Below, one piece after another: positions 32,345-56,300 of a stretch of DNA of 64,000 nucleotides. The stretch is from Candidatus Multivoradales bacterium. Lineage in GTDB: Bacteria; Acidobacteriota; Thermoanaerobaculia; Multivoradales; Multivoraceae. Below the pieces are notes generated by a model. That model was not told the origin of the DNA, did not search any database, and worked only from the letters and a program-made list of their open reading frames with translations. The DNA lies in contig CBDCWI010000002.1 of assembly GCA_965223325.1 (NCBI GenBank), positions 1,984,001-2,048,000 on the forward strand, given 5' to 3'. A program made the translations under genes and the position numbers. Position 1 is the first letter of the stretch. Each line of letters opens with the position of its first letter.

Positions 32345-32627
32345 GCTCACAGAACAAACGGAACTGCGAATTGCGCTTAACGGGTCGCGGACACTAGAAA
32401 CAGAGACGCTCCCACCTTGGACGAGGCCCGAAGGCTCCTCGGTACCCCAGGAAACCGGGCGGGCCGCTCGAGGCGGCGAGCGCAGTGCGATGTGAGGGGC
32501 GCTCGTGACGGGACGGCGGTGTGGCCCCGGTCGGTGTGCTCGACTGAGACCGAGAGGGCACGCGGTGCGCCGCGCACCGCGGGATCGGCCACAACGCTCC
32601 GCTCTTCCGCACCCCGAGCAGGCTCGC

Positions 32628-32673
32628 GGGGAGGCCCCCTGGGGGACCGGACGGGACGACCGGGCGACGGTAC
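32628..32673. repeat. ~45-bp GC-rich repeat, copy 1 (copy 2 at 37269-37312)
   Basis: GGCCCCCTGGGGGACCGGACGGGACGACCGGGCGACGGTAC vs GGCCCCTGGGGGGCCTGACGGGACGACCGGGCGACGGTAC. Confidence 0.8.
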
Positions 32674-33590
32674 CCGCAGCTCACCCGTTTCCTCGCTGCG
32701 CGACCAGACCCAATCACCGATCTCGATTTCCCCGATCGGTTTCATCCCGGTCTCCGTCCACACCGGAGTGCCTGCGACGAAGCACTTCTGAGGCGTCGCG
32801 GTACGACCCACTGCCTGTGGAGTTGCTGTCCGTGGCTTCGGCGAGGTTGTGCTCTGTTGAGCACTCCGTCTTGCACGGTTGGAGGCGTTCAAGGCGGCTA
32901 CTGCTTCGTCAGCTCGCTTGGCTGCCTGCTCGCCCACTTCGGCCACGCTCTTCGCAGTGGCTCGGCCTGTGCTCCTGGCCGTACTCCGCCCTGCGCTACC
33001 CGCGTTCAGGCTCTGGGCTACGAAGGACGTGAGCTTCGTCTGCGACGCCGCATCGCCCCTCGCCGCACCGACTACGACCTCCCCGGCGCCTTTCGCCAGC
33101 TGGGTCGCCACCTCTTCTGGGTTCTCCGAGATGACGTCCCACGTGTCGGACAAAGCGCCCATCGTCTCGACGAGGCGCTCCTCCGCCTCCCTGCCCATCG
33201 TCGTGTCGGGAGACAGGCTCGCAACCATTCCGTCGGCCACGAAGCTCGTCGCATCAACACCGAAAGCGAGAACGTCGGCACCGGCACCGAAGACTCCCAG
33301 CGCCACGGCCGCTCCACCCTTCAGACGACGCGTCACGAAGTTGTCACCGAAAGCGTGATCGATTTCCTCGGCGAGGTCGCCGGATGCCTCAGCGGCCTCG
33401 TCCGTCCCTCCCCGCCTGAGGAAACCCGAGAAGCGCTCGAGAATGTCGATCCTCCCATCAGGATCGATCCACACCGTCGGGTTGACCTTGCCGAAGGTGT
33501 ACCAGTGCAGCGAAGGTGGATCGGACAGGTCGCCAAAGACCGGATCTTCGGTGAGGAACCTCCCCACTTGTGGGTCATAGAAGCGGGCTT
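32674..33590 (-). pseudogene. Orphan Rhs tip cassette 4: core end, pre-toxin helices and a truncated Hint domain; toxin and immunity absent
   Basis: ARFYDP...NPTVWIDPDGR, then CFVAGTPVWTETGMKPIGEIEIGDWVWSRSEETGE, broken at ~32674. The frame runs on in non-protein-like sequence to 32377. Confidence 0.85.
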
Positions 33591-33757
33591 CTAATGTCCC
33601 TACCGCGATCTAGCCCTAGACCGCTGATTCCCTGAGAGTTACCTCGATCTCGGCGTTGCTATGCCCCCACCGCGAGGTTTCAGGACCGCGCAGCCGCCAC
33701 ACGCCGTCGGAACGTCCCCCCGACCGTGCGCGGCAACGCCGCGCGATCTGGCGACTT
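33591..33757. repeat. Inter-cassette spacer copy A (156-bp module plus terminal CTGGCGACT; middle deleted)
   Basis: Aligns by eye with 35190-35345, 39409-39562 and 41500-41655. Confidence 0.9.
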
Positions 33758-34100: not shown

Positions 34101-35189
34101 CTATCGCAAGGGGTCTATGAAGCCGATGAACTCGCCATCAGCGGTAAAACGCGCGCCGTGACCACTGGAAACGCGGAACTCAAGCGTGAGACCACTGCGG
34201 GGCAAGACTGGGGTCGTCACTACCCCTTCGTCAAGAATCTTGACAAGCGCACGTTCAGCCATGTCGTTGAGAGCAGCTTGTGACCCAGTCGCAACTTCAC
34301 CGAGGACCGTCTCGGCCACCTCAGGGTGCTTAGTGAGAGCCCGGCCCGCTTGGGTCAAGCTACCACCCTTGAACGGAGTCGAAGCGACCGCAACCAGCTC
34401 CTCAGCCTCGAACTGACGGCCGCCAACAGTCAGCGGGTTTCGAGCACCGCGACCAACTCCCGCTTTCCCTAGATCGACGGCTTCGTCAGCCAAACGGAGC
34501 GCACCGAATCCGAGCGCCGCTTCAGCGAAGAACAACTCGGGAGCTACGACTCCCACACTGAAAACGACAAGCTTCGGTGATCTCGGCTACGTACCCGATC
34601 CCCTCAAACCCCTTGTGGAACTGGCACAGGTTGTTGCAGTTCGCCTCAGGCCCAAGGATCGACGACACAATCCTCACGTCTCGACCTCTGCCGGGAACCC
34701 CCTTCTCGTGAGTCAGGTACAGACGAAGCGAAGTCTGGAAGATGTAGTGCTGGTTCTCCCACGTCTGCCCAGGATCACGTTGGTCTTCGAGCCAAATGAA
34801 GATCTCGGTGAGAAACTCCTCACCATCAGCCACCCGCTTCTCCAGCCGCTGCACCTCATGCCGCAGTCGGTTGACCTCGCCAGTCGGATCAGGTCCCGTG
34901 AGCCCAGGGCCTACCTCACCATCTCGGTCTTTGAACCGTTCTTTCCGCTCTTCGAACCTGGCAAGGCGCTGCTCAGCATCAGCAAGCGCGTCACGGCTCG
35001 TCTGCAGTGACTGGCGGTCTGCAGCGTGCTCCTCCAACGTCACGTCGAATCGCCCGTCGGGATCGACGAACACTGTCGGGTTCACCTTCCCGTAGGTGTA
35101 CCAATGGAGCGAGGGCGGATCGGAGAGGTCTCCGAAGACGGGGTCTTCGGTGAGGAAGCGCCCCACTTGTGGGTCATAGAAGCGGGCTT
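34101..35189 (-). pseudogene. Orphan Rhs tip cassette 3 (frameshifted), putative nuclease toxin
   Basis: Rhs core end in ORF 34522-35166. Toxin-like AGRALTKH...GARFTADGEFIGFIDP is in another frame (34101-34556), with the shift near 34575. Confidence 0.8.
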
Positions 35190-35345
35190 CTGATGTCCCT
35201 ACCGCGATCTCACCCTAAACTACTGATTCCAAACGGGTTATCCAGATCCAGGAGTTGCTATGCCCCTACCGTGCACTTTCAGGATCACCAGGCCGCCGAA
35301 CCCCTCGGGAAAGTCCCCCCGACCGTGCGCGGCAACGACGCGCGA
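35190..35345. repeat. Inter-cassette spacer copy B (156-bp module)
   Basis: CTGATGTCCCTACCG...TAAACTACTGATT...CTATGCCCCTACCG...GACGCGCGA. Confidence 0.92.
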
Positions 35346-37438: not shown

Positions 37439-37453
37439 CCCGAAGGGGCCGAG

Positions 37454-37825
37454 CCGCGGCGTACGAGGGCCAGAGTCGGGGAACGCCGCGTTCCCGGACA
37501 GGCGGATCTGCAAGCGGCGTGACAGAAGGGAGGTCCGAGGAGGGGCCCAATGGCGCGACGCTTGCCCCGCCAGTCTGGCCCGATCCCGGAGGGCGGACGA
37601 CGCGGCGATGCCTGGAACGGGCGGAATCCGGATCGAAGCCTTCTTCCTTAGTGGCTACCAAAAGCCCCGGGCCGGGACGCGATTCGGGTGGCTGCGACGA
37701 TTCGATGGCTCGGCGAGCCCGGGCGGGTGGGCCGGGGGGACTTCCGTTCCGAGAAAGACTGCAGGACGCAGGGCGACGCGCTCCGGCGTCAGCCGGAGTG
37801 CGGCGTCCCGAAGGCCTGGCGACCT
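37454..37825. repeat. Inter-cassette spacer copy E (right-hand ~370 bp)
   Basis: Highly similar to 41657-42025. Together with copy B it reconstitutes one full spacer. Confidence 0.92.
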
Positions 37826-38102
37826 ACTGGCTGTCGTCCGCACCATCGAGCTCCTTGACAACAGAATCTCGGAGGCTCTCGACAAGGGTCAGCCAATCCC
37901 TCAGCTCCGAGGGTCCGGACGTGTCCACAAGGCCCCGGTGCGAGGTAGCGTGATCGAGTAGCGCCTCCAGGGCACATCGCCTCTTGCCTTGGTTGCCGAG
38001 GACATCTTCAGCTAAGCGCTCAATACTCTCCGCATAAGCACAGTGGCCCCCCGCGCGAAGTTCCTCGACTACACTCTGCAGCACATTCTCAAGGTGGCTC
38101 AA
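37824..38102 (-). CDS. Putative immunity protein of cassette 2
   Basis: 92-aa helical ORF. Its TTG start overlaps the toxin stop, with GGAG upstream. Confidence 0.7.
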   Translation of the reverse strand: MSHLENVLQSVVEELRAGGHCAYAESIERLAEDVLGNQGKRRCALEALLDHATSHRGLVDTSGPSELRDWLTLVESLRDSVVKELDGADDSQ

Positions 38103-39408
38103 TCCAGCTCCTCCAAGCGTACGGCACCGGACCTCGTTCCTCCGGCGGTAACCGTCTGCTCACCTCCACCGGCCTTGAAGGTTGGGCCAAACACGGGGTC
38201 GGTCGGCCGGCCTCCCTGGCCCCTGACTTTGCCTTCAAGCAGGATCTGACTCCGCGTTAGTACCGCTCGTCTCACACGGATCGCGTTGTTCTTGCTGGGG
38301 AGCGCGAACAATACGGTTCGGGCAAGTGCTGGAAGGGAGGACGCGGGCCTTACGAAGAGGCCTGATGCTGGCGAAAGAAGCGCACTGTCGGCAAAGAAGT
38401 TCTCGCCAGCCAACCCTCGGCGAGCGGTGATCTTACCCTTGAAGGAGCGAACCACATCCCTCGCTGCCTCGGGCGAGAAACCTCGCTGTTCAAGAAGTCG
38501 ACGAGCACCCTTGTTGTTGATCTTCGCAGGGGCCTGGCTAAGACCCCGGCCAAGATTCGACGCCTCTCGAGCGCGGCGACTCTGAGCAATGTTCTGAGTC
38601 ACCCGCTGACGAATCTCGCTCCGCGCTCGTGGTAAGGCCCTGACACCCGCCTGCAGCAAGGCCGGAGGAGGCGATGGCGCCGCCTCATTGGCAGCCCGCA
38701 CCGCACTACGAGCTCTGCTCGTCCGATTCAAAGACTTGACCGCATCTGCAGCACTGCCGACGGACCTCCTCGCAGCGCCACTGGCTGTTCCAGCGCCCTT
38801 GCTCAGCAAAACCTCCGCAAGAATCTCGGTCTTGAACGCCTGGACCTTGGCAATGGTCTCTGGGTCGCCCGAGGCAAGTTTTCCGGACGTGCTGGCCACT
38901 GCCTTGACCGCGGCGGAAGCCGCCTCGCTTGGATGCTCGACGACGTAGCTGACTCCAGCCTTCACGCCCTCGATCGTCGACTCAATCGATTCCTCGAGCT
39001 CGAGTGCCGCTTCCTGAGCGATCGGGTTGTCGGAGCCCAGGGCAGTGGCGGCACCAACGTTCGCCGAGAAGTTCAGGAAGCCGACACCCCGATCGACGAG
39101 CCCAAGTGCCCCCGCAGCTGAGCCCTTGATCTTCGCTTCTGCCCTGCCTGCGAGGTTCCCCAGCACGGTATCTTCGCCGAACACCGCGTCACTGATGCTG
39201 GCAGCCCCAGCAATGATCTCGGCCTTCTTGGCTCGGATCCTTTCCTGCAGTGCACGCAGCTCAGCGATGCGCCCATCCGGGTCGACCCAGACGGTCGGAT
39301 TCACCTTGCCGTAGGTGTACCAATGCAGCGACGGCGGATCGGAGAGGTCTCCAAAGACCGGATCCTCCGTCAAAAACCTCCCCACTTCAGGGTCATAGAA
39401 GCGGGCTT
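38099..39408 (-). CDS. Orphan Rhs tip cassette 2, putative ART/TNT-fold (NADase-like) toxin
   Basis: ARFYDP...DPDGR core end, then C-terminal LFALPSKNNA...LEGKVRGQ...GGGEQ. No credible start of its own. Confidence 0.8.
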
Positions 39409-39846
39409 CTGATGTCCCTACTGCGAACTCACCTAAATCACTTAATCCATTGAGCTTGCTCGGGTCCGAGGGTTAATATGCCCCCACCGTGCACTTTCGG
39501 GATCGCGAGGCCGCCAAACCCTCGGGAAAGTCCCCCCGACCGTGCGCGGCCACGACGCGCGATCCGAAGAGGGGCCCACTGGCGCGCCGCTTGCCCGACG
39601 GCCTGGCCCGGCCCCCGTGGGCGGACGACGCGGCGACACCTGGGGCCGGCGGAATCCGGATCGAAGCCTCCTACTTTAGAGGCTACGAAGCCCCGGGCCG
39701 GGGCGCGGCTCGGGTGGCTGGGACGGTTCGCAGGAAGGCCGAGCCCGGGCGGGTCGGCCGGGGGACTCCGGAAAAGACTGCAGGACGCAGGGCGACGCGC
39801 TCCGGCGTTAGCCGGAGCGCGCGGCGTCACGGAGACCTGGCGACCT
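39409..39846. repeat. Inter-cassette spacer copy C (internal deletion immediately after GCGCGA)
   Basis: Aligns to copy D with the segment after 41655 missing up to TCCGA(A/G)GAGGGGCCC. Confidence 0.92.
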
Positions 39847-39902: not shown

Positions 39903-40355
39903 TCATTCGACAACGACGGCTGGTCGCCACCGCCTTCTTTCAAAGTACCTTGTTGACTCCTCAGAAAAATGCGCCTCGGCGTGGCCGTTTGCGTAGAGCA
40001 CTAGCTCGACCTGGCCGTCGTCTACCAAGACCGCTACCCGAGTACCTAGGTCACTCGACAATCGGACAGCCGACCGATCGGCAACTACCTCAAGTATCTC
40101 TCGCTCAAGGGACTCCCGCGGCGCGCTGAGGTAGACAGCAACTGCAAAGGCCCTTGAATCTGCGATGGCCCAAAGCGGGCTGCCATCGGTTTCGCCTCTA
40201 GACCGAAGATAGTCGTCCGCATCCCGAGCTTCGTCACCCACGTATGCCACCTCTACGTGAAACGGCCACTTCTCGGAGAGCACATGAGACAGCTTCGCCT
40301 CAACCTCAGAGCAGTCCGAGCTTTCGACACAAAGCACTACGTAGGGGGATGACAT
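39903..40355 (-). CDS. Putative immunity protein of cassette 1
   Basis: 150-aa ORF starting 2 nt after the toxin stop, with lower GC than the core genes. Confidence 0.7.
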   Translation of the reverse strand: MSSPYVVLCVESSDCSEVEAKLSHVLSEKWPFHVEVAYVGDEARDADDYLRSRGETDGSPLWAIADSRAFAVAVYLSAPRESLEREILEVVADRSAVRLSSDLGTRVAVLVDDGQVELVLYANGHAEAHFSEESTRYFERRRWRPAVVVE

Positions 40356-40357
40356 TC

Positions 40358-41499
40358 TCAGAAGTCTTTCGGATTCGGTAGACTGGCCTCATCGACCACC
40401 CGGATCGAAACCGACGGGTCCTTGGGGTTGAATCTTGAGACAAAGCCCTCAAAGGTGGCTAGCGGGACTCTGGAATCAGCCGCTCTAACAACGATAACAA
40501 GGCCACCCTCACCAACCTGGCCGACCCCCTTGTTGAGATCGCGGGCGAGGTTCTTCAGGCCCTTCGCTCGCTTCACCTCAGTGAACTGGTTCAGCGGCTT
40601 CCCTTTCCGTGAGACATGAAGATCTGGCCTCGGGGTCTGCGCTTCCGGAACGAAGCGAACATCCTTTCCCTCAAGTCGCAACAGCTCCGCGACCTTCAAC
40701 TCTGCTACGGCGCTGGTGTCACCCCTTTTCGCCATCCGAACTCTTCTGGAGCGCTCAGCCAAATCCCCTGTGATGCGACCAGCTGTGCCTCCAGACCTAG
40801 CCTTTCCTCTCGGTGAGGCCAGGTTTACTCTCGGTGCACCGGAACCGGCGGAGCGCGTTCTAGCGGCACGAGATGCTCCACGGAGACTTCCCGCTCCCTT
40901 TCCTCCTGCAGCAAACTCCAGTGCCGTCCTCTTAGCTCGAATCTGAGCGTCCGCGTCTCCCTCGACGGCACGGGTACCTACATCGACGACGTTCTCAATG
41001 ATCTCTTTGACGTCCGGAGTCTCTCGCTCGATCTTCTCAAGCACCTCTCGTTGACGAGGCCTGAGTTCGCGATCGGCAATCGTTGAGGAGCTAGAGAGAA
41101 GGCGCTCGTGATCAATGGCCTGGTCGGCACCATGAAGGCCGAACCCAATCACACCGAGCACTGCAGACCCTGCGGCCGCAGCATCCTCGATGCGATTTCC
41201 AATGAAGCCACCAACGACGGGGATCTTCTCGGAGGCCTGGTCCGATAGGTCTGCCGCCGCAGAGATCAAAGTTTCGTCGGCTAGCGCTACCGCCTCCTGA
41301 GCTGTGTCCAGCTTCTCCTGTGCTCCAACGAGGAGTTCGTCCAGCTGCTCTTGGCTCATCCGACCGTCCGGATCGACCCACACCGTCGGGTTGACCTTGC
41401 CGTAGGTGTACCAGTGCAGCGAAGGTGGATCGGTGAGGTCTCCAAACACCGGATCTTCGGTGAGGAAGCGACCGAGTTGAGGGTCATAGAAGCGGGCTT
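40358..41499 (-). CDS. Orphan Rhs tip cassette 1, PD-(D/E)xK nuclease (CdiA tRNase-like) toxin
   Basis: Core end followed by AELKVAELL...RPDLHV...FTEVKR...GQ. An in-frame GTG at 41512 lies in the spacer without a clear RBS. Confidence 0.82.
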
Positions 41500-42025
41500 C
41501 TGATGTCCCCACCGCGATCTCACGCTAAATCACTGATTCCAAACGGGTTATCCCGATCTCGGAGTTGCTATGCCCCCACCGTGGACTTTCGGGATCGCGA
41601 GGCCGCCACTCCCCTCGGGAAAGTCCCCCCGACCGTGCGCGACAACGACGCGCGACCCGCGGCGTACGAGGGCCAGAGTCGGGGAACGCAGCGTTCCCGG
41701 ACAGGCGGATCTGCAAGCGGCGTGACAGAAGGGAGGTCCGAGGAGGGGCCCAATGGCGCGACGCTTGCCCGCCGGTCTGGACCGATCCCGAAGGGCGGAC
41801 GACGCGGCGATGCCTGGAGGGGGCGGAATCTTCGTCGAAGCTTCTTTCTTAGTGGCTACCAAAAGCCCCGGCTCGGGACGCGGACCCGGAGGAGAGGGTG
41901 ACTCGCAGAAAGGCCAGCCCGGACGGATGGGCCGGGGGGACTTCCGTTCCGAAAAGGACTGCAGGGCGCAGGGCGACGCGCTCCGGCGTCAGCCGGAGCG
42001 CGTCGTCCCGGAGACCTGGCGATCT
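41500..42025. repeat. Inter-cassette spacer copy D (longest, 526 bp)
   Basis: 156-bp module (41500-41655) plus a GC-rich structured part with a 14-bp-stem hairpin at 41974-42005. Confidence 0.93.
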
Positions 42026-42052
42026 CATGCACGATCGCAAGGTTGACTTGAT

Positions 42053-42277: not shown

Positions 42278-42279
42278 CT

Positions 42280-45200
42280 CTATTGTTTCCCTCGCGACAG
42301 CCCGGTGTCAGAATTGAAAGTCCTTGGCTCGAGGTTTAGGCCTCCGTTCTGAACGATCCCATCACGGGTTTGAACCCAAGCCTGGGTACCGTCATCAAGC
42401 GTGCGTGCTGACCACTCGTTACCGAATCTATCGGTTCCCAGAGTCGCTGCTGGATCATCCGCGACGTCGATCAACAGGTTTCGGTTCTCTGGTGTGTCAG
42501 GCAGATGTCCTGGCCTATCTTCGAAAATGTGCTCGAGCTGGGAGTCACCGTCTGGGAACCGAGTAGCCGACTCTGGGGGAGCAGAAGCTCCCCTTGCCGC
42601 ACGAGCTCTCTTCCCTCGAAACGCGCGAACAAACTTCGACCCACCTCGGACCAATCCACCCGCCGCGGTGCCAACCTCGAGCACGGTCCGCTTCGTTCGA
42701 ATCTGAGCTTCTCGATCTCCCCTGGAGGCCTCATACCCGACCTCGACGGCGCTCTCCAAGATGAGAACAGCGCTGTCTTTCGCCTCTTCGACGAGCTGCT
42801 GGTTCGCTTCGAAACCTCTTGTGCGGTGTGGAAGCGCCTCGGGCTCCGCAATCATCGTTATCGGCGACTGCTGATTGTTGGCGTTGATCTCTAGCGCTAG
42901 ATCTACAGCCTGAACAGCACTCGGCGGGATCCGAAGGAGGTTGAGGCCGGCCGAGGCGACAGCTGCCAAGTCTTCAGTTCTTTCAGCAAGCCAGGAGCCT
43001 CCAGGTAGCTCTTCAAGCTTGTCAGCCGCTTCCGCGGCCTTCTCGATAACAGCATCATCGAGCTCGGTGATCATTTCTTGAGCGCGCTCTGCCTTCTCCA
43101 CCACCTCGTCAGGCAGTCCCTCCGGCGCAGAGGGCATTCCGCGTACCTCCACTCGCCCATCGGGATCGACCCAGACCGTCGGGTTGACCTTGCCGTAGGT
43201 GTACCAATGGAGCGACGGTGGATCGGAGAGGTCTCCAAACACCGGGTCCTCGGTAAGGAAGCGGCCCAGCTCCGGGTCATAGAAGCGGGCTTTGGCGTAG
43301 TACAACCCCGTCTCATCATCCAGCTCATGTCCCGTAAACCCGAACACGTTCGCACTCGACCCCACCTGCGAGCGTAGGTTGCCCCACGCGTCCCAGCGGT
43401 ACCTTGCCTTCAAGGCGCCGTCGGGCTGGATCAGGTTGGAGATTGAGCCCAGGGCGTCGAAGAGGTAGAACTGGCGGCCTTCTGAGGTGTTGTTGAGCGA
43501 CAGGAGGCGGTCGGGGCCGTAGTCGTACTTCGAAAGGGTGAAGCCGTTGTCGTCGGTCTGCTGGAGCACGCTCTGGTCGTCGTAGACGTAGCGCACTGTC
43601 CCTTCGGGGCCGCCGCTCTTGCGGATGCGGAGGCCCTGGTAGTCGTACTGGTAGTAGCCCGAGAGGAGGCCGTTGGTGCGCACTTCGGTGAGCTGGTCGC
43701 GGCTGTCGTAGAAGTGCTCGCGGGTCTCGCTGCCCTGGCTGCGGGTGCGCAGGTTGCCGTTCGGGTCCCAGCTGTAGGTCACCGACTGGGTCGCGTCCAG
43801 AGCGTCGATCATTGATTCGATACGGTGGCGGCTGTCGTAGCTGAGCGTTCGGTCGCGGGTGACGCCGCTGGTGCTTGTGTCGACTTCGGTGAGACGGTTG
43901 CCTACGCCGTCGTAGGTGTAGGTGGTGGTCTTGTCGGGGTACACCACCTGGGTGAGGCGGTCGGCCAGGTCGTAGCTGTAGGTCGTGGTCTCGGCGGCGC
44001 CGCCGTTCTCTTCGACCTGGACCGTGCGGTTGCCGTTCCGGTCGTACTCGTACGAGTAGCTCGAGACCAGGGCGCTGTTCCAGCGGTTGGTGATCGTCTC
44101 GGTGCGACCCGCCAGGTCGTAGGTGGTGTCGGCCGTCGTACCGTTCGGGTAGGTAACGCGCTCGAGGCGGCTGTCGCGGTAGTAGCGATACTCAGTCGTT
44201 CCACCGTCGGTGGTCACGGTGGTCGGGCGGTTCAAGCCGTCGAAGGTGTAGGTCGTAGCGAGGCCGTCGGAGTCTTCGAGGCGGGTGCGGTTGCCGTTGG
44301 GGTCGTAGCGGTACGAGAGGGTCTCGCCCTGAGGGTCGGTTACGGTCTCGAGGCGGTCGAAGGTGTCGTAGGTTCTGGTGGTGACGCGGGTGCCGGTTGC
44401 ACCGGTGTACTGCTCCTCGATCAGGGTCGGGTTGCCCGATGGGTCGTAGGTCATCGAGATCTCTGACAAGAAGTCGGTGCGGTCGGGGTCGTTGACCGGC
44501 TCGGGGTAGGTCACCGAGGTCTCTCGATCGAGAACGTCGTAGGAGCGGGTGATCTCCTGGCCTACGGCATCGCGAAGGCCGGTGATGTTGCCGTTCTCGT
44601 CGTAACGCATCGCCTCAGCCGAGCTATCGGCCATGGTCTTGGTGGCCTGGCGGGAGAGGGCGTCGTAGGAGAAGGTGGTGGCACTGTTCTCGGCGTCGAG
44701 GTGCTCGAGGAGGTTGCCGGCCTCGTCGTACGTGTACGACGTCGTACCAGCCGGGGATGTGACGCTCTGAATGCGGTTGGCTTCGTCGTAGCTGTTGCGC
44801 CAGGTACCCCCTTCGGGGCGCTGCGTGAGGGTGCGGTTGCCGGCCAGGTCGTACTCGTAGAGGGTCGTCTCGCCGGCGCCGGTGGTCTCGCTCGAAAGAC
44901 GCTGCCGCAGGTCGTACGCGCGGCTCGACTCACGACCCACGGGATCGATCTCGAGGATGACGCTACCCATGGCGTCGTAGTGGAACACCGTGGTCGACGT
45001 CTCGGGGCGGTTCTCGACCAGCGCCAGGTCGCGCTCGTCGTAGTTCCAGGACGTCGTAGCGCCGTTGGCGTCGGTCTCGGAGACTTTGTTGCCGTTGGCG
45101 TCGTAACGACGTGAAAGCAGCTGCAGCCCATCGCGCGACTGCGCGATGTCGCGGTTCTCGCGATCGAAGGTAAAGCGCTGCGCAATGCCGCGGCGATCGA

Positions 45201-48200
45201 TGTGTTCGACCTGGTTGCCGATGGCGTCGTACTGGAAGGTCTGCACGTAGGACAGCGGACCTGGGTCTTGCTGACGGACGAGGCGGTTGAGGCCGTCGTA
45301 CTCAAACGATGTCGTCAAGCCGCGCGCATTGGTCCTGGTGAGCACATTGCCGACCCGGTCGTAGGTCTGGCTGGTCTCGTAGCGGGCGGTGCTGCCCTCA
45401 TTGCCGAAGCCGGTGGCGGTGGGCGGCAGGATGCGTCTGGTCTCGCGGTTTAAACGGTCGTATTCGATGTCAACCGTGAAACCGCGCACGTCGGTCACGC
45501 TGAGCTGGTTGCCGACGACGTCGTAGGTGAAGGTCTCAACGCGCGGCTGGGTTGCGGGAACTGTAACGGTAGGTAGACGGCGCTCGACGACGCGATCGAG
45601 CGCGTCGTAGTCGAGCTCGGTGCGGTGGCCACGCGCGTTGGTCTCGGCGGTGCGGTTGCCGCGCGCGTCGTATTCGAAGGACGAGATTGCCCCCATGTCG
45701 TCGCTGGTATTCAGCAGGCGGTTGAGGCCATCCCAGTTGGACGTCTGGGTGTTGCCGTTGGGGAACTCTTCGGTGAGCAGGTTGCCGACCGCATCGAAGG
45801 TGCGCACCGTGGTCGCAACAGCTAGACCCTCGGGATGGGTCGCTGACGTCACCCGGTCGAGATGGACTGTGGTTGTCGTGCGCCGGTTGCGCGCGTCGTA
45901 GCTGTGCTCGACCCGGTTGAGGTTGGGGTCGATCTCGGCGACGACGTTGCCCACCTTGTCGTAGCGGAAGGTGGTGGGCCGGTTCTGCGGCTCCCGATCT
46001 TCGGCATCGGTCTGCGTTTCGACCCGGTCGAGAGCGTCGTAGCTGAAGTTGCGAATCTGGTCGGCGATGTCCCAGCTTCCCGAAGCGCTGTAACGCTGGT
46101 TCAGGCGGCGTTCTTCGATGAGGTTGCTCGAGCCGTCGTAGATCCACTGGGTAGTTTTCGCGGCGCCTGACGAGTAGGGCGGCTCGACGAACTCGATGCG
46201 CCGGTTGAGCTCGTCGTAGCGCGAGCTGCTTACCCGTCCCTCGGGGTCGATCTCCTCGACCAGGTTGCCTTCGCCGTCGTAGCGACGCCGGGTCGTCGCG
46301 TCGCCCGCTGCGGTGCCGAAGACCTGGGTGATTTCATCCTGTCGGTTGAGACCGTCGTAACCGAACAGGGTCTCGCGGGTGGGGAACGAGCCATCGCTCT
46401 GATCAAGCAGGGTCTCGCGGATGACGTTGCCTGCCGGGTCGTAGCCGTAGGTCGTGGTGCGATCGAGGGGCTCATCGCGGCGCACCAGACGATCTGCGTC
46501 GTCATACTGAAAGGTCACCTCAGTGCGCAGCGTGTCGGCGTCGAACCAGCCGGTTTCGAGAGTCTTGTTGCCGGCCTCGTCGTAGGCCAGCTCCATGGTG
46601 CCCCCAACCGCGTTCTCGATACGCACCACCCTGCCCTGCAGATCGAACTGTGTGGTGGTGGTACGGCCGGCCGGGTCGGTCTCGGTCTGGACGTTGTTGG
46701 CGTCGTCGTAGCTCGCCGTAGCCGAGGGGCGGCCTGCCTCACCTGCTGCGCGCGGCAGGTCGGTGCGCAGCAGCCGACCGAGACCGTCGTAGGTGAAGTC
46801 GGTGACCCGGCCTTCCTGGTCGGTGCGCGAGAGCGGCAGGCTGCGTTCGTCCCAGACGGTCTCCGTGGTGCCGCCGGGCGAGGGCTCGATGACCCGCGCG
46901 AGGTTGCCGTAGACGTCGTAGGTGAAGGTGGTTGTGAAACCGCGCGGATTGGTGGTGCGAATCCGGTCGCCGTTAGCGGAGTAGGCGTGGGTGGTGGTCA
47001 GGCTCTCGGAGGACTCGAGCCCGGTGACCTGGATCGACTCTTCGATCAGGTTGCCGCGGTTGTCGTAGCCAAACGACGTGGTGTTGCCGTTGCGGTCGGT
47101 GCGCGTACGCAAGCGGTTCTTGATCTTGCCGCCAGCCGGCAAACTGAACGTCTCAGAAGGCCAGTAGGTGTTGACCTGGGTGAAGGTGCGCTCGGTACCG
47201 TCCCACTCACTGCTGAGGGTCTCTTCGCTCAGCAGGTTGCCTTCGCTGTCGTATGTGAAGGTGGTGGTCACCCCGTTGGCATCGGTGCGACTGGTGAGCA
47301 GGATGTCCTGGTCATCCCAGGTCATCAGGCTTTCGTTGCCGAGCGGGTCGACGGTGCGCTGGGGCGAGCCGTAGCCGTTCAGGAACCAGCGGGTGACTTT
47401 GGGGTCGCCGTCGGTGCGGGCGCTCTCGACCTGGGTCTCGAGCTGACCAGAGGAGCGATCGGCAAGTGCCAACGTGTTGTAGACGAACCGTGTCGTGCCG
47501 CCCGCGGTCGTGATGTCGCCCCCGGGCCCGGTCGTTCCCTGGGGCTCCACCAGGTGGTCCACGGCATAGGTGGGCACCTGAATATCACCCTGCACGCCGA
47601 CCGGCTGCTTGATGTACACGTAGCTGGAGAGGGCGGTGTTGAGCTGGTTCTCCACTTCCACGAGCAGGTGGCGCTTCTCCCACAGCGGGGTATCGCCAAC
47701 CTCGAAGTTGTAGCCGTAGCGCTCACTGCGCAGGCCCCCTTCCCGCACAGCGCTCGTCAGATTGCCGTGGATGTCGTAGCCAAAGGTGACGCTTTGATTC
47801 CCCGGACCAGTGATTGCGGTGATGACCTGGCCACTCCAGAGAGCAAAGTCGCGGCGCACGTTGGTGAAGTCGAGGCTGCGCCCACTGGAATCAACGACGC
47901 TGGTGAGCACCCGGTTCTCACCGGCACCGCTATACAGCAGGTCAGTTCGGTTGCCGTTGGTGTCCTCGATGAAATCGAGTTCGAAGTGGTTGTGCTCGCG
48001 CAGGAAGTAGCGGTAGCGGCTGCCATCCCGCGTAAAGAAGTCGAAGGCACCGTTGTCGGTGTCCTGCACCAGGGTGCCGTGGTAGCCACGCAGCGGTGTC
48101 CAACCACCCTGGCCGTCGCCCTCGAAGCGCATGCCCGACCCTTCGGCGCCGATGACGATCGCGATGCCATGCGGCGTGAGGATGAGGCGCGAATCGTAGG

Positions 48201-51200
48201 GATGAGACCAACCCACCCCGAGCGTTCCCGGCGCGTTGCCATGGTTGCTCGACCAGGTCCGCGAGAAAGAAAGGGCCTTGCCTCTCCCGGGGTACGAGAG
48301 GTCGGAGCGTGACACCACCAGATGGCCGTCGAAGAGATTGACCCCTTTGACCATGGCATGGCCGACTGGTGCACGATCACGCACCTCGTAGGCAACTTCG
48401 ATACTGCCCTCATGGGTTTCAACGAAGCCGTCGTCGGTGGCGACACCTGTGAGTTCGAAGCGGTAGCTTCCCGGCGCGAGGTCTCCCGGGCCGAGGTCAC
48501 GCCGCTGTTGGCCCAAGAGCACTTCGCCGCCGATGACCGTCTGCGGGGCGCCGAGCTCGAAGTCGCCGTCCGGGGTCATCGCATCAATGGGCCGCACTTC
48601 GAGGGTGACTGCGGCCTCGCGCCTTACAACGAACTCGAACGCGTCGGCCTGGCTGAACGCCCGCTCGTTCGGGATGTCGACCTCCTGGGTCACCCGCAGG
48701 TACTGCTTGACGTCGCGGAAGATGCGCTCGGTTACCGGGAGGGGGAAGGGCTCTGAGCGCACTTCGTAGCTGCTGCCACGGTTGAGAACGACCTCGAAGG
48801 CGTAGCTCGCGCCATCTACGATCTCCAGCCCGCGTGGAATGAGAGCCGTGCCCTCGCCCTGGCGTTCGGTGCCCTGCGCCGTGCCGAGGAGTCGGCCGGT
48901 CTCGACACCGTTCGCATCGCTGACTTCGATGAACGCCACCTCGACTGACAGCGCGTGGTAGTCGGCAGGTTCGATGCGATAGGCCACAGTCAGCTGGTCA
49001 CCAAGGCGAGAGTCGGCGGTGATCACGGTCTGCTCGGGCTCCGTTCCCAGAACCTCTGGCTGCACCGCAAAGAGTGCCGGGCGCTCGAAGGTCAACCAGG
49101 GCAAGCCGCCCGCCGGTGAGAACAGCTCTCGCGGAATGACCAGCGGGTTGCCGGCCTCGTCGATGAACTCGGCATTCCAACGAATGTGGTGCGGCTCGAG
49201 CTTGACGGTGTGCTCGACCGGCACTGGCCCCGCGGTCGGACGTACGAAGTAGGTTCCGAACTCGCTCCCTTCACTTTCCGGCACGAAGAGAGGCGCAGAG
49301 AGAGAGCCGCCGTTGGAGAGGGCGCCAGGCTCGGCCAAGAGCTCCGGCAAGTCGACCGCCGTCCCGGTAATCCAACGACCCGTTGTGCGTTCGCGGACAT
49401 CGCCCTGGTCATCAATGTACGGGTCCGGGTTCCACACCTCGAGAACGATCGAGAGGTCGGCGTCGGGGCTTTCTCCTGGTCGCGCTGCGGCAATCATGTT
49501 GCCGAACTCGTCGACCGGGCGCGGCATGCGGAACCTGAAGCTGGTCAGGTTGGAGCACGGGGAGATGGGGTTCCCGTCGGGATCGGTGGCGTTGCCCTGT
49601 GAGAACAGAACGTTGTATTCGAGCGTTTCGGAAAACACCACGCCGTCTCCCGCGACCGGATAGGAGACACGGATCAGCGACGGCCGAACAGCATCGTTCC
49701 CCAGGATGACTCCGGCTTGTGCACCGCGCGGGCCAGACACCGTCTCGAGGACCGGACCGCCGCACTGTCCGTGCCTTGGCAGCGCAATGGCGCAAGCCGC
49801 GGGGTCGAACACCTGAGCATCGCGGAACAGGCCTGCGGGCGGCACGCCAGGGAGCGGCTGAAAGTAGTCCTCCTGGTTGGGGCAGACGTTCTCGAAGTAG
49901 GGCGCCTCTGGCACGTCGAACACGACGGGCGCGTTGGAGACCGGGTTGTCGAACGCGTCATAAAGAAAAACGCGCAAGGTCTCGGCAAACGTTGCTGGTT
50001 CCGCCGTATGCACCTGATCAACCGGACGATCCGGCACCAGTCGTGCCGGCGGGCCTGGCAGCATGTACTCACGGAACGGCTGGTCGATGACGACCTCGTC
50101 GTCCTCGACCTGAGCGACCGCCTCAATGAGAATCTGCCCGGCGAGCGTGGCTTCCTCGTCACTTTCGCGAATCCGGATGAGCTCACCGTTGACGCTGGTG
50201 TCGGTTCCCATGAGAACCTCGACCCACGCAATGCCCGCCTCATCGCTAGTGGTGCTTGCCGACTCGCCTGCACCGTTCTCTGAGCGCACGGTGGCGTCGC
50301 CGGCAACAACAACAAACTCCACCAGAGCGCCCACCACGGCGCGACCGAGGTCGTCGCGGGCAACCACCCCAATGCGCTGCGGCAGCCTTTCACTGACTTC
50401 GGCCATCAGCCCGTCGGTTTCCTCAACTCGCGAAAGGCTGGTTACCGAGAGTGGGTCCGGGTTGGTGTCCTGGCCGGCACCCGCCAGCGCATCCGCCAGG
50501 TCGTCGAGCACCCAGTCCGCGAAGGGCTCGACGGTCTCACCGCCCGCCAGGCCGCCACTCAGGAAGTAGCCGGCTGCCCCGCTGGCCTGATCGATGACCC
50601 GAAACACCGAGCCCCGCCAAGCGCGCAGCTCGACTTCTGTTTGTGGGATCTCGACCACCAGGCCGTCTTGTGCCCAGGCGAGAACCGCCGCTTTGACCTC
50701 CTCCGAGTGCGACAGTGTCGGAAGCAGGGCATCGACATTGCTCGCGTCAAGGGTGGTGATCGCAATGCCCGACTCTCGCGCCAGGCCGAGGCCTCGATCT
50801 GCCGAAATGCTCTCCACCATGAAGTCGTCTTCGAAGCCGAAGTGCTCGCGGCTCGAGCCATGAAGGGCAGAAATGGCGGTAAACGAGCGTGCTACGGCCT
50901 CCGGGTCGCCGCCCTGGGTCGGGTCCGCAAAGGGGTGCACAACGCGCTCAATGGCATCGAGCTCCACCCCTTCGACCCGTAGGGCCTGCGGAAGACCGAC
51001 CGCAAACTCGACATCGATCGCCAGCGAAGTCACCGCCAAAGAGGGCGCGGGCCGCAGAACGGTGACTCCGAGCAGGCCCCCGAGGAGCCGCTCACCCTCG
51101 TCCCATTCGATGCCGAAAGAAAGCGCCCGCTGGGCGAGAAGAACCGCCGCCAAGGTCTCGTCTTCCCCAACGACCAGGTCCTCCGCAGAAGGCTGCCGCT

Positions 51201-53373: not shown

Positions 53374-56300
53374 CACAGACCCCCACCAGTGGAGCCATCA
53401 TCCGGGCCAACAGCTCTTCGCCCGCCGGCGCCGAGACGCCGGACGCCGAAGGCAAGCAGAAGCCCAACCAATAGAAACAAACCGAACGGTCCGAGCACTG
53501 GAATCGCAATGACACTCGGACTCAAGTCGACCACCGTGGCATCGCCCTTCTCGACGGTGGTGGGATCATCGCTGTAAGTCGGCTCGAGATCGCCGGCGGT
53601 CAGAACACCCTGGATCGCCACGAAGCGCGTCCCCGGGAGCGGAGCCTCGGCGAGGCGGGTCGCAAAGCGCAACCAGCGCGCACCGCCGGGCTCGATTCCG
53701 CCGAAGGCATGCAGCGCCTCCAGCTCCGGCCCACTTGCATCGCGGCTGGAGGTGCACCCTTCAGGTGGTGAGCCATCTCCGAACTGCACGCTGCCGGGCA
53801 CCGTCTTCAAGACAGAAGGAACGTCGACCAGGGCCGTCACGCCGCGGGCGGCCGCGTCACCTACGTTCTCCACCCGCAGCGTCCATACGAGGACGTCACC
53901 GTGATCGAAGAGCCGATCCAGCTGGCGGTCCTCTTCGAAGCAACGGTCAAGGAATGCTTTGAGCTTCGGGCGCAGCCACTCGACGGTGATGCTGTCCTCT
54001 AGAACCTCACCGCCAGCCGTCGTGGCCACAGCATCGATCCGGGTGAGACCGCGGAAGAGCTTCACTTTGGGAACCAACCAGCTGCCGTCTGCCTCTGCGA
54101 TGACGGAGGGATAGACCCTCGAGTTGTGAGGATGGGCAACGCGGGTGGCCGTCACCTCAACCGTCGCGCCGGGGTCGGCCTGACCGCTCACGTCCTCGTG
54201 CGGGCCGAGCAGACTCTCGCCGTCTTCTGGATCGAGAATCAAGAAGCCAAACGACGGCCTGATCTTGAGGATGAAGCGAACTTCGACCCGCGCCGTATTG
54301 CCGAGCGTGTCTGTTGCCACAACGACCAGGAAGTGCGCACCGTTGGCATCGACCTCGGTGCCGCTCTCGAAAGGCTGGAAGTCGAGGGTGATTTCGGTGG
54401 TGTCCAGGTGCGGGTCTTCGACCGTAATGATCGGCGTCACCGGGTGCTCGTACTCGACCGTATGTTCCACGCCGGTCACCGTGATCTCGGGCGGCGTACC
54501 GTCAACCTCCACCGAAATCGCCTGCGCTCTGCCCTCTGCACCGTCACCGTCTGTCGCACGCGCCTCGATCTGGTGGAGCCCGTCGGCGAGCCCGTCGACT
54601 TGCCGCTCGTAGAAGGGCGCGACCATGGCAGTGGCCGGTAGCCACGCACCGCCGTCCATGCGAATCTCGACCGTGTCGACGGAGTTGTCATCGGTCGCAG
54701 AAACACGGACGGTGAAGCTCGCTGGTAAGAGCGCGTCCGCGAGCGGTTCGACAATCGCAACGACCGGTGGCTCGTTGGTGCCACCAAGCTGGAGGGCGGA
54801 ATCGGCATTCGCCAGGAGCTCTGTTACGAGGAACAGGTCAGCCTCGACCCGATACTGCCCGGGCGCCGCACCCGACGAATCCCACAGACGCTCGACGACC
54901 ACGCTTTGACCCACGGGGATGTCGGCTGGATTGTCCTGCCAACTGGCAACCACCGTTGCGGTGGCCATCTCAACGATGCGCAGGTCGAGGCGCGCACCGG
55001 AAAGCGGCTCCGAGCCGGCCTGAAGGTCGATCTGGGCACGAACTGCGATCTCGGTGCCAACCTCGGCGTTCGCAGGATCGGCGAGCACCGAGAGCCCGAC
55101 AGACTGCGGTACCAGAATCGTAAAGACCTCCGCGCTCTCAGACACCACGGTACCGGCGCCATCGGTAAGAACGGCGCGCACGGTGTAGACCCCTGGGGCG
55201 ACTCCGGCTGTGTCCCAAGTGAAGGGGAACTCCGCCGAACCATCGGCAGGAACCTGGGCCGTACCATCAACAAGAACCGCGACGAGAGAGCCGGCGCTGT
55301 CGTAGACGCGCACGGCAAGCTGGCCGTCCAGGGCAGTGCTCGCTGCAGACACGGTCGCCGACCCCGAAACCACAACACCCGGTGCACCCTCTTCGGCATC
55401 GAGGGCAAGGGTCACAGAAGGCCCGTCGCCGAGGATCACGAAACGAACCAGCGTGCTTGCCTGGTTGCCGGCAAGATCGCGGGCGGTTGCCTGGAGCAGG
55501 TAGCTGCCCGGCTGGGAGACGTCGGTACCCGAGATGAAGACCAGCCCGTTGAGGAGCACCGAGCTTGCCGCGAGATGGTCTTCTAAGATCTGAACGACTG
55601 GCGTCACGGTCCCGGTCAGCTGCTGGCCGTCGATGACGCCAAGAATGGTGATCAGAGGTGGCGTGAGATCGACCTCGAAGGTCAACGGACCCGCCGTCGC
55701 AACGTTGCCGAAACGATCGGTCGCGCGGGCGGTGGTGGTGTGCGTACCTTCGCTGAGGCCACTGGCATTGAGGACGAACTCCCCACGCTCGATATCGGCC
55801 AGGGTGGCCAGCATGAACGGTCCGCCGTCGATCGCGATCTCGACCCGCTCGATCCCGGAAAGGTCATCGGTCGCGGCCACCACGAGCCGGGCGTCGGCAG
55901 CGAGGAACGCACCATCCGTCGCCGGCGAGCGGAACTCGAGCACCGGCGGTTGACGGTCCACCAGGCTGACCTGAATCGTCGCCAGGCGGACGGTTTCCAC
56001 TCCCCCGCCAGGTGCTGGCAGGTCGGCCGAAAGAACCGCGACATAGGACGCCAACTCCAACCCGTCGGTGGCGAACTCGGCCCGCCCGCTAATGGTTTCC
56101 TGGACGGCGAGATCATAAAGCTCGACCACCGCGCCCAGCTCTTCGCCGCTCTCGGCGCGGCGCAGAACCACCCGCACCGGAATTGCTGCCAGATCGACTC
56201 CACCGACGTTTCTAACCGTGAAGTCGAGCGGCAGAGTGTCGCCTACCGCCACCGCCGAAGAAGGCCCGAAGAGAGAGCCTACGAGCGCGGCGGGCTGCAA

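What the first reader, a model, noticed from the sequence alone, without database searches (positions are those of the whole stretch)
41481..41655. att-site-like anatomy at every cassette junction: palindromic core, IHF-like box and repeated GGGNCAT motifs
Seen: the junction reads GGGTCATAGAAGC-GG-GCTTCTGATGTCCC, a 29-bp inverted repeat with one bulge and one mismatch around a central GG. The left arm is Rhs coding sequence and the outer right arm is spacer (also at 39390, 35171, 33572). The main gene has only the left arm plus GCTT. Further out is a minus-strand AATCAG-N4-TTA (41526-41538, 35216-35228; degenerate in A and C), then a third motif copy, CTATGCCCCCACCG (41568). Module lengths are 156, 156, 156 and 154 bp. 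Established: WATCAR-N4-TTR is the IHF consensus, and a core plus IHF plus accessory sites is typical of integrase/resolvase sites. Inference: the main gene holds a simple attB-like site and the cassettes hold complex sites.
Basis: partly seen in the sequence, partly recalled or inferred. Interest (0 to 1): 0.85.

Follow-up and report, generated by a model that had tools for sequence, protein, structure and literature searches.

The report
Transposon-end spacer at Rhs toxin cassettes
Each spare toxin-tip cassette behind a giant Rhs toxin gene in this bacterium is preceded by the same 156-base non-coding piece whose start copies the end of a jumping gene abundant in the genome; it most likely marks one old fusion that ordinary recombination has carried along, not a classical integrase docking site.

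Summary
The 29-bp imperfect palindrome, the AATCAG-N4-TTA box, the repeated GGGNCAT motifs and the 154-156-nt module all lie where stated, before all 4 orphan Rhs tips. A fifth copy lies on the other contig.

The integrase/IHF reading is only partly supported.
- The module's first ~40 nt are homologous to the terminal inverted repeat of multicopy Y1/HUH (IS200/RAYT-like) transposase elements in the same genome.
- The "GGGNCAT" motifs are three direct copies of that repeat's core, CRCGGT(N)GGGG.
- No serine or tyrosine recombinase gene lies in the window.
- The IHF-like box fits the consensus in 3 of 5 copies and is no better conserved than the module average.
- The palindrome has a 2-bp spacer, and it is absent from the only homologue found elsewhere (genome G003).
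- A clear crossover lies inside the Rhs core end, not at the palindrome.

The palindrome is still the best-conserved block. It varies only at its bulge, and the synonymous sites of its coding arm are invariant in 6 of 6 copies.

Best reading (0.5): an IS-end-derived junction formed once and spread by homologous recombination. An active HUH-type or regulatory site is not excluded.

The full module was found only in this genome.

The parts
42280..53376 (-). Main Rhs gene (3698-aa ORF). Its C-terminal tip starts after the core end.
   Evidence: (YD-repeat families D3-D7)
43154..43292 (-). Core end of the main gene (ARFYDPELGRF...VDPDGR). It is the only stretch homologous to the orphans, so it carries only the right (coding) arm of the palindrome.
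   Evidence: (D2)
41500..41655 (-). Module copy M1 (156 nt), before orphan tip 1.
   Evidence: (D1)
39409..39564 (-). Module copy M2 (154 nt by nhmmer), before orphan tip 2.
35190..35345 (-). Module copy M3, before orphan tip 3.
33591..33746 (-). Module copy M4, before orphan tip 4.
41612..41655 (-). TIR-like head of M1: a GCGCG...CGCGC hairpin followed by CACGGTCGGGGGGACTTTCCCGA. It is homologous to the terminal inverted repeats of the Y1/HUH transposase elements.
   Evidence: An IS-only TIR profile hits M4 at E 6.6e-5, M3 at 0.008 and M1 at 0.13, each from profile position 1.
41570..41583 (-). Second direct copy of the TIR core motif (CACGGTGGGGGCAT).
   Evidence: 0.89 identity
41507..41516 (-). 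Third direct copy of the TIR core motif (CGCGGTGGGG). It is the last module sequence shared with the G003 homologue.
41526..41538 (-). IHF-consensus-like box AATCAGTGATTTA.
   Evidence: 3 of 5 copies fit; identity 0.78
41481..41510 (.). Junction palindrome GGGACATCAGAAGC-CC-GCTTCTATGACCC (minus-strand reading). Copies also lie at 39390, 35171 and 33572.
   Evidence: RNA hairpin -9.5, DNA -4.9 kcal/mol
40358..41499 (-). Orphan tip 1: 46-codon core end plus a C-terminal domain. The putative immunity ORF lies at 39903-40355.
38099..39408 (-). Orphan tip 2. Its C-terminal domain is 99.4% identical over 312 aa to the tip of the C1 copy (M5).
34522..35189 (-). Orphan tip 3.
32377..33590 (-). Orphan tip 4.
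41653..42025 (-). Repeat X, copy 1 (~370 nt, with terminator-like hairpins), behind the immunity ORF. It ends within 3 nt of the start of the module.
39563..39846 (-). Repeat X, copy 2. It ends at module M2.
37450..37825 (-). Repeat X, copy 3. No module follows it; it runs on into a GCCCCTTCGGGGC hairpin.

Best explanation
The 156-nt module is a composite, mobile-element-derived spacer. It marks a single ancient fusion between the end of a Y1/HUH (IS200/RAYT-like) transposase element and a truncated Rhs core end.

The module's head is the element's terminal repeat: a hairpin followed by the CACGGTCGGGG core. That core recurs twice more in direct orientation, and the last copy abuts the Rhs fragment. 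The short filler at the join (ACATCAG) completes an inverted repeat with the first Rhs codons.

Once formed, the [module + 46-codon core end] junction was carried from cassette to cassette by ordinary homologous recombination within the core end. This is the model of Jackson et al. 2009, in which circular or linear intermediates cross over with the main gene. It explains why every displaced tip has the same boundary and why the main gene has only the coding arm.

Shown here: the homology to IS ends, the exact boundaries, the absence of a local recombinase, and a crossover inside the core end.

Inferred: the one-time fusion, and that the module itself is not cut by a dedicated enzyme. The strong conservation of the palindrome and of the motif blocks is not explained by this reading. 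It leaves room for a retained protein-binding or hairpin function.
For: 1. Homology to IS ends. A 30-mer from the module head matches 32 places in the genome at up to 5 mismatches: 5 modules and 27 others. The others are at or beside the ends of ~1.39-kb elements with ~40-nt inverted ends. These elements encode proteins that hit Pfam Y1_Tnp at 26.7 and 27.6 bits (cut-off 23). The genome has 29 Y1_Tnp matches. Local alignment scores are 38-52 for M1 and M3, against a null of ~17.7 +/- 2.4. A TIR profile built without the modules finds M4, M3 and M1, each from profile position 1.

2. Boundaries. Repeat X is near-identical in copies 1 and 3 up to ...GCCGCGG(G/C)TCG. After that, copy 1 continues as the module and copy 3 does not. 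Homology to the main gene starts at AAGCCCGC.

3. Homologous recombination. The C1 copy M5 carries the tip of cassette 2 (99.4% identity over 312 aa) and is identical to it over core-end bases 70-138 (0 of 69 differences). It differs at 20 of 69 bases in positions 1-69 (Fisher p 4e-7) and in the module.

4. No local recombinase. No serine or tyrosine recombinase and no Y1 gene lies in the window.

5. Silent cassettes. The orphans lack start codons in 4 of 5 copies and have an in-frame stop upstream, as known silent tips do (Poole 2011, PMC3150448, passages read).

6. Published model. Jackson 2009 (PMC2935791, passages read) proposes homologous recombination with circular intermediates and no integrase.

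7. How M5 moved. M5 lies between two inverted copies of a 306-aa ORF, so it did not need to move by itself.
Against: 1. The palindrome is the best-conserved block. All 13 non-bulge left-arm positions are invariant in 5 of 5 copies, while only 92 of 157 module columns are invariant. The coding arm is invariant at 5 of 5 third positions in all 6 copies, against 10 of 39 overall, and it includes an unpreferred TAT codon.

2. The module (mean identity 0.80) is better conserved than the third codon positions next to it (0.62). The genealogies may differ, though, and the non-coding repeat X is 78-88% identical.

3. Only the first ~40 nt resemble any IS now in the genome. The inner 110 nt match no IS interior (z at most 2.0).

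4. In Jackson's model, core fragments vary in length. Here they are uniform.

5. In G003 the module's last 45 nt are joined, in the same reading frame (EIAVG), to a different Rhs tip. This means either two independent joins or an element that recurrently sits before tips.
Confidence: 0.5

Rival explanations
1. The module is an active cis site for a trans-acting Y1/HUH transposase. The terminal-repeat hairpin, the three core motifs and the bulged junction hairpin would be recognised on single-stranded DNA. The enzyme would then excise or insert toxin-immunity cassettes at the Rhs core end. This would be an integron-like cassette system driven by an HUH enzyme.
For: - The TIR homology starts at position 1 of the module.
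- The module has three direct core motifs, against about 0.002 expected per module.
- The motif blocks (0.87-0.89) and the palindrome (0.95) are the conserved parts. The palindrome varies only at its bulge, as HUH-bound hairpins can (the HUH hairpin features are recalled).
- The genome has 29 Y1 matches.
- TIR-like sites lie near other Rhs loci: 2 of 5 within 1 kb (55 of 20000 random placements reach this) and 4 of 5 within 10 kb (1 of 20000).
- One IS sits directly after ...VDPYGLDE of another Rhs tip.
- In G003 a homologue of the Y1 protein (29% identity, E 3e-31) lies 0.7 kb behind the tip that carries the module's 3' element.
Against: - No inverted partner end lies anywhere in the window; the only TIR-profile hits there are three of the four modules (M1, M3, M4), all on one strand.
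- The junction palindrome is unrelated in sequence to the TIR hairpin.
- It is absent in G003.
- The only demonstrable crossover is inside the core end.
- M5 moved inside an IS-flanked segment.
- Mobile elements and toxin loci both gather in islands, so the association is confounded.
- The module's predicted fold is no more stable than that of shuffled sequence (z -0.20).
Confidence: 0.2
2. The module is a regulatory leader: a promoter, an operator or a 5' hairpin. Transcription from the main operon would stop at the terminators in repeat X. The module would restart it, so that orphan immunity genes are expressed while the start-less tips stay untranslated.
For: - Two terminator-like hairpins lie in X, just upstream of the module.
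- The module is the only conserved non-coding stretch between them and the orphan.
- Orphan regions are transcribed and orphan immunity genes are expressed in other systems (Poole 2011, passages read).
- The module points towards the orphan in the same way that the IS end points towards its transposase gene.
- The conserved palindrome could be an operator or a stabilising 5' hairpin (RNA -9.5 kcal/mol).
Against: - No sigma-70-like promoter was found in 41300-42300.
- The TGGAATCAG motif does not recur before other genes.
- Rfam gives nothing, and only 2 of 51 predicted pairs covary.
- Modules M3 and M4 have no X upstream of them.
Confidence: 0.2
3. One reading: a lambda-type or resolvase-type site-specific recombination system. 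The cassettes would carry complex sites (core palindrome, IHF box and accessory motifs) and the main gene a simple attB-like site.
For: - The palindrome is conserved.
- The 13-2-14 geometry resembles the crossover sites of serine invertases and resolvases (recalled).
- The IHF consensus is rare in this GC-rich genome (70 hits), yet it is present in 3 of 5 modules.
- Three HU/IHF-family genes exist.
Against: - There is no recombinase gene in the window.
- The main gene has only a half site.
- The 2-bp spacer does not fit tyrosine integrases (recalled).
- The IHF box is not preferentially conserved (0.78) and is degenerate in 2 of 5 copies.
- The 'accessory' motifs are IS terminal-repeat cores.
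- G003 lacks the palindrome.
- A crossover lies inside the core end.
Confidence: 0.05

Closest known systems
Rhs dissociated-tip (orphan) arrays formed by C-terminal displacement (Jackson et al. 2009, PMC2935791; Poole et al. 2011, PMC3150448; Koskiniemi et al. 2014, PMC3967940, search listing only)
   Same: A main rhs gene is followed by core-end + alternative C-terminal domain + small-ORF cassettes. The tips lack start codons. Homologous recombination occurs in the shared core sequence.
   Different: All tips keep exactly the same 46-codon core fragment. Each is preceded by the same conserved 156-nt non-coding module with an IS-derived head and a junction palindrome. In the published model the core fragments vary in length.
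Ends of IS200/IS605 elements and the REP/REPIN sequences that flank RAYT genes (Nunvar 2010, PMC2817692, and Bertels & Rainey 2011, PMC3116915: listings and abstract starts only; Bertels 2017, PMC5581495: passages read)
   Same: A GC-rich hairpin and an adjacent conserved motif are shared with the sequences that flank Y1/HUH transposase genes of the same genome.
   Different: There are only 5 copies, all before tips of one Rhs family. They are not dispersed and not doublets. Only ~40 of the 156 nt are shared. The transposase elements here are multicopy with inverted ends (29 Y1_Tnp matches in the genome, not all of one element type), unlike single-copy RAYTs.
Integron attC sites and the recombinase-associated AID immunity-gene arrays of gut Bacteroidales (Ross et al., bioRxiv 10.1101/471110, listing and abstract start only; the details are recalled)
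   Same: A repeated non-coding element sits at every cassette boundary of a toxin/immunity array.
   Different: No integrase lies nearby. The module has no attC-like long imperfect hairpin (z -0.20). The crossover evidence points to homologous exchange.
Lambda attP-type sites (core + IHF + arm sites) and serine-recombinase crossover sites (recalled)
   Same: The module has a short inverted-repeat core, an AT-richer box that fits WATCAR-N4-TTR, and repeated flanking motifs.
   Different: There is no recombinase gene, and the partner in the main gene is only a half site. The IHF box is not conserved. The repeated motifs are transposon-end cores.

Membership tests
Rhs orphan-tip array (C-terminal displacement) | A full-length rhs gene is followed by fragments that carry the core end, a different C-terminal domain and a small downstream ORF. 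| tested here: met
   There is the main gene plus 4 orphans in the window and 1 on contig C1. The tips fall into five distinct types; main/orphan 1 share 35% identity and orphan 2/orphan 4 share 27%.
Rhs orphan-tip array (C-terminal displacement) | The tips lack translation initiation signals. | tested here: met
   4 of 5 have no ATG/GTG/TTG between the in-frame stop and the core end. M1 has a GTG.
Rhs orphan-tip array (C-terminal displacement) | The core fragments vary in length, set by where the crossover fell (Jackson 2009). | tested here: not met
   All 5 fragments start at the same base (AAGCCCGC...).
Rhs orphan-tip array (C-terminal displacement) | Homologous exchange occurs within the shared core sequence. 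| tested here: met
   M5 against cassette 2: 20 of 69 differences in one half of the core end and 0 of 69 in the other, with the same tip downstream.
IS200/IS605 or REP/RAYT-type element end | A Y1/HUH transposase is encoded in the genome. | tested here: met
   PF01797 gives 29 matches. Two families score 26.7 and 27.6 bits (cut-off 23). The NCBIfam RAYT model scores only 31.8 (cut-off 80). No significant PDB sequence match was found.
IS200/IS605 or REP/RAYT-type element end | The sequence is shared with the ends that flank those transposase genes, including a hairpin. | tested here: met
   This holds for the first ~40 nt only. The hairpin pairs are kept in 5 of 5 copies (columns 8-12 / 20-24).
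IS200/IS605 or REP/RAYT-type element end | There are many dispersed copies, or a partner end that bounds a mobile unit. | tested here: not met
   There are 5 full copies, all before Rhs tips. No inverted partner lies in the window.
IS200/IS605 or REP/RAYT-type element end | The transposase cleaves or binds the site. | not testable with these tools
   This needs biochemistry.
Lambda-type att site (tyrosine integrase + IHF) | An integrase gene lies at or near the site. | tested here: not met
   The 9 PF00589 matches all lie outside the window.
Lambda-type att site (tyrosine integrase + IHF) | The core has inverted binding sites around a 6-8-bp overlap that is shared by both partner sites. | tested here: not met
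   The spacer is 2 bp, and the main gene has one arm only. The 6-8-bp rule is recalled.
Lambda-type att site (tyrosine integrase + IHF) | A conserved IHF site is present. | tested here: not met
   The consensus is met in 3 of 5 copies, and the identity (0.78) is at the module mean.
Serine resolvase/invertase crossover site | An imperfect ~12-bp inverted repeat surrounds a 2-bp crossover in both partner sites, and a recombinase gene is present. | tested here: not met
   The geometry is met in the orphans only. The 4 PF00239 matches all lie outside the window.
Integron attC | A long imperfect palindrome folds as single-stranded DNA, and an IntI gene is nearby. | tested here: not met
   The DNA fold is -32.7 kcal/mol, against -32.1 +/- 3.1 for shuffles. 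No integrase is nearby.

The most novel reading that the evidence does not exclude
The module is the working end of a non-autonomous HUH-transposon-like cassette. A Y1 transposase encoded elsewhere in the genome would recognise the terminal-repeat hairpin, the three CRCGGT(N)GGGG motifs and the bulged junction hairpin on single-stranded DNA. It would then move whole Rhs toxin-immunity tips into and out of the core end of the main gene. This would be an integron-like weapon-swapping system run by an HUH enzyme instead of an integrase.
Probability: 0.15. Interest if true: 0.8.

Novelty: new variant of a known kind. Interest (0 to 1): 0.45.

Why it matters
How new toxin tips enter rhs genes and push old ones downstream is still explained only by a hypothetical model of homologous recombination through circular intermediates.

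This locus has unusually clean anatomy:
- identical boundaries at every cassette;
- a spacer derived from a transposon end;
- a conserved junction hairpin;
- a datable chimera (M5).

That makes the question testable. Outward PCR or long reads can show whether the joints fall at the palindrome or anywhere in the core end. Purified Y1 transposases can be tried on defined oligonucleotides.

If the module is only a fossil, it is still a useful marker. It shows that one junction, once made, is propagated through a whole cassette array. It also shows that Y1/HUH elements gather at Rhs loci in this acidobacterial lineage.

Tried and rejected
**Structured RNA.** Rfam gave no match at E up to 1 over 32000-43500. 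The fold z-score is -0.20, and only 2 of 51 predicted pairs covary.

**Decayed Rhs coding sequence.** The module does not align with the core upstream of the main gene's core end, and it has stops in the orphan frame.

**Truncated interior of a present-day Y1 element.** The inner 110 nt of the module match no IS interior.

**Promoter.** No sigma-70-like site was found. TGGAATCAG and its variants occur 32-35 times in unrelated contexts.

**The module elsewhere.**
- Not found in 60 relatives; 2 genomes had only short matches to the head.
- Not found in 299 other genomes of the order, where only 2 candidates per genome were scored.
- Not found in 80 Rhs loci of genome contigs (weak nhmmer hits at E 0.08 and 0.45; the first is antisense YD repeats).
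- A metagenome pattern scan gave 2 chance hits without module similarity.
- No match in plasmids or phages.
- No match in the scan's own index.
- The 3' 45 nt were found once in 56 other family genomes, in G003. A 29-nt match in G073, 110 nt before an unrelated gene, may be chance.

**Comparable orphan arrays in relatives.** None lie within 10 kb of the main genes in L031-L036. G001 has no close orthologue, and the second copy in G012 is a frameshifted main gene.

**Sequencing runs.** No RNA holder is listed. The laid contigs of 4 runs break at the repeats and give no informative joint across a module.

**A right-hand inverted end for the array.** None was found.

**A GGGG(A) target preference of the IS.** By eye, most flanks end in GA and only a few in GGGGA, so this was dropped.

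**PDB sequence search with the Y1 protein.** Nothing was significant; the best transposase match has E 0.9.

**The G003 neighbour ORF.** It has no Pfam hit, but it is homologous to the Y1 protein by BLASTP.

**Supplementary files of papers.** They were not consulted.
Full report
**What is there**

On the minus strand, the window holds a 3698-aa Rhs gene (53376..42280). It is followed by four start-less tip cassettes. Each cassette begins with the same 46 codons, ARFYDP...VDPDGR, which match the main gene at 43292..43154 with 85-88% identity.

Directly upstream of each cassette lies a conserved non-coding module of 154-156 nt: 41655..41500, 39564..39409, 35345..35190 and 33746..33591. A fifth full copy with its own tip lies at G000:C1:1782147-1782299.

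**Chance**

Palindromes of this quality occur 2.8 +/- 1.7 times per 64 kb in 30 dinucleotide shuffles, against 11 centres in the real window. One centred on the homology breakpoint is therefore unlikely.

There is a caveat. AAGC/GCTT already exists in the main gene (Lys-Ala-Arg-Phe codons). GGG/CCC comes from the module's terminal GGGG and from the Asp-Pro codons. Only the filler ACATCAG is new.

The five copies share one origin, so they count as one event.

**What the module is made of**

Its first ~40 nt (TCGCGCGTCGTTGCCGCGCACGGTCGGGGGGACTTTCCCGA) recur across the genome.
- A 30-mer matches 32 places at up to 5 mismatches: the 5 modules and 27 others. A second variant matches 11 places.
- The other places are at or beside the inverted ends of ~1.39-kb elements.
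- The ORFs of these elements hit Pfam Y1_Tnp at 26.7 and 27.6 bits (cut-off 23).
- The NCBIfam RAYT model scores 31.8, below its cut-off of 80. No PDB sequence match is significant.
- PF01797 matches 29 places in the genome, none of them in the window.

The homology is not a chance match.
- Local alignment scores are 38-52 for M1 and M3, against a null of about 17.7 +/- 2.4. M5 scores lower, at 23-30.
- A TIR profile built from 24 IS ends, without the modules, finds M4 (E 6.6e-5), M3 (0.008) and M1 (0.13), each starting at profile position 1. It does not report M2 or M5 at E below 1.

The core of the repeat, CRCGGT(N)GGGG, recurs twice more in direct orientation inside the module.
- There are 10 hits in the 5 modules, against 200 in the whole genome on both strands.
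- The third copy ends the module.
- The inner 110 nt match no interior of a present-day Y1 element.

**Boundaries**

A ~370-nt repeat, X, carries terminator-like hairpins. It follows the small ORFs after the main tip, tip 1 and tip 2. Copies 1 and 3 are near-identical up to ...GCCGCGG(G/C)TCG. There copy 1 turns into the module, while copy 3 runs on into a GCCCCTTCGGGGC hairpin.

After copy 3 come a 62-aa ORF, a ParE-family toxin gene (49.1 bits) and an NTP_transf_8 gene.

The module therefore begins, within 3 nt, exactly where the IS terminal repeat begins. It points inward towards the Rhs tip.

**Conservation**

| Segment | Mean pairwise identity |
|---|---|
| TIR-like head | 0.87 |
| Motif 2 | 0.89 |
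| Motif 3 | 0.87 |
| Palindrome left arm | 0.95 |
| IHF-like box | 0.78 |
| Central variable hairpin region | 0.53 |

- Over the whole module, 92 of 157 columns are invariant.
- In the 29-nt palindrome, only the bulge varies: C, T or TC.
- The coding arm is invariant at all five third codon positions in 6 of 6 copies. In the whole core end, 10 of 39 degenerate codons with an invariant residue are invariant at the third position.
- The module as a whole (0.80) is better conserved than the neighbouring third positions (0.62).
- I treat that last comparison with care. The tips and core ends may have older, foreign genealogies, and the non-coding repeat X is also 78-88% identical.

**Recombination**

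The tip of M5 is 99.4% identical over 312 aa to the tip of cassette 2. Bases 70-138 of its core end are identical to cassette 2 (0 of 69 differences). Bases 1-69 differ at 20 of 69 (Fisher p 4e-7), and the module differs at 29 of 165.

A crossover therefore fell in the middle of the core end, not at the palindrome.

Four-gamete incompatibilities are equally frequent in three classes: 75 of 136 pairs within the module, 84 of 136 within the core end, and 168 of 289 across the junction. Saturated sites may contribute to these counts.

M5 itself lies between two inverted copies of a 306-aa ORF. I take this ORF to be an IS transposase, but I did not test it.

**Recombinases and IHF**

No PF00239 or PF00589 match lies in the window. 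Three HU/IHF-family genes exist elsewhere in the genome.

The IHF consensus is rare here: 70 hits against 70 expected. It fits 3 of 5 modules and is not preferentially conserved.

**Elsewhere**

The full module was found only in this genome.

The last 45 nt occur once in G003, a genome of the same family but another genus (model R1, E 5e-11; 1 of 56 other family genomes).
- There the element ends at ...ATCGCGGTGGGG.
- It is followed, in the same reading frame (EIAVG), by a different tip fragment, SFLYANGDPVGMVDPTGM.
- No palindrome is present.
- A homologue of the Y1 protein (29% identity, E 3e-31) lies 0.7 kb downstream.
- The contig ends 77 nt upstream, so the head cannot be seen.

Within G000, TIR-like sites lie near other Rhs loci: 2 of 5 within 1 kb (55 of 20000 random placements) and 4 of 5 within 10 kb (1 of 20000). 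One IS starts right after ...VDPYGLDE of another Rhs tip. Island effects confound this association.

The closest Rhs relatives are acidobacterial MAGs (56% identity).

**Reading**

The integrase/IHF att-site model fails most of its own tests. The standard model is homologous recombination through circular or linear intermediates (Jackson 2009, passages read). It explains the array once a single [IS end - core end] junction exists, and the M5 chimera shows such exchange happening.

I therefore rate a one-time fusion propagated by homologous recombination as most likely (0.5).

That reading leaves three things unexplained:
- why the palindrome and the motif blocks are the conserved parts;
- why the core fragments are uniform;
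- why a related element precedes a different tip in another genus.

These keep two alternatives open: an active HUH-type cis site (0.2) and a regulatory leader (0.2). Neither can be settled without experiments. No RNA run was listed, and the laid contigs break at the repeats.

Noticed in passing
G000:C2:4443085-4491092 and G000:C1:2122221-2144090 (outside the window): There are two hot spots packed with ~1.39-kb Y1/HUH transposase elements with ~40-nt inverted ends. The genome has 29 PF01797 matches, far more than the single copy typical of RAYTs. Some ends are nested in tandem, for example at C1:2135785/2135815.
   Followed up: partly
G000:C2:2355956-2355985: A Y1 element starts immediately after the ...NNPVRFVDPYGLDE motif of a tip fragment of another Rhs family. 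It sits exactly where a toxin domain would begin, and the reading frame runs 30 codons into the IS end before a stop.
   Followed up: partly
G000:C1:1779754-1784413: The fifth module + tip copy (M5) lies between two inverted copies of a 306-aa ORF, like a composite transposon. It is a chimera of an unknown module/core-end with the tip of cassette 2. The ORF family was not tested.
   Followed up: partly
window 35464-37179 (-): A 62-aa ORF, a ParE-family toxin gene (36725-36994; Pfam 49.1 bits) and an NTP_transf_8 gene (35464-36507; 133 bits) lie between cassettes 2 and 3, right after the third copy of repeat X.
   Followed up: partly
window 41962-42018 (also at ~39806 and in the third X copy): A 13-bp perfect hairpin, GACGCGCTCCGGC-TGAC-GCCGGAGCGCGTC, lies at the start of repeat X. 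It is followed by GGAAGTCCCCCCG, an inverted look-alike of the IS-end motif CGGGGGGACTT(T)CC. The order of hairpin and motif does not match a true IS end.
   Followed up: partly
window 41541-41562 and the same columns of the other modules: The least conserved part of the module exists in two haplotypes: M1/M3/M4 around GATC, and M2/M5 as CTCGG.CCGAG. Both are locally palindromic. This could reflect a structural constraint or a swapped segment.
   Followed up: no
L114 (G073:C136) 1518-1546: A 29-nt match to the module's TTTGGAATCAGTGA-TTA region lies 110 nt upstream of an unrelated small basic ORF, in another family of the order. It may be chance.
   Followed up: no
window 32622-32673 and 37262-37312: A 52-nt match at 88% identity links the region after the third X copy to the 3' part of orphan tip 4. 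It is unexplained.
   Followed up: no
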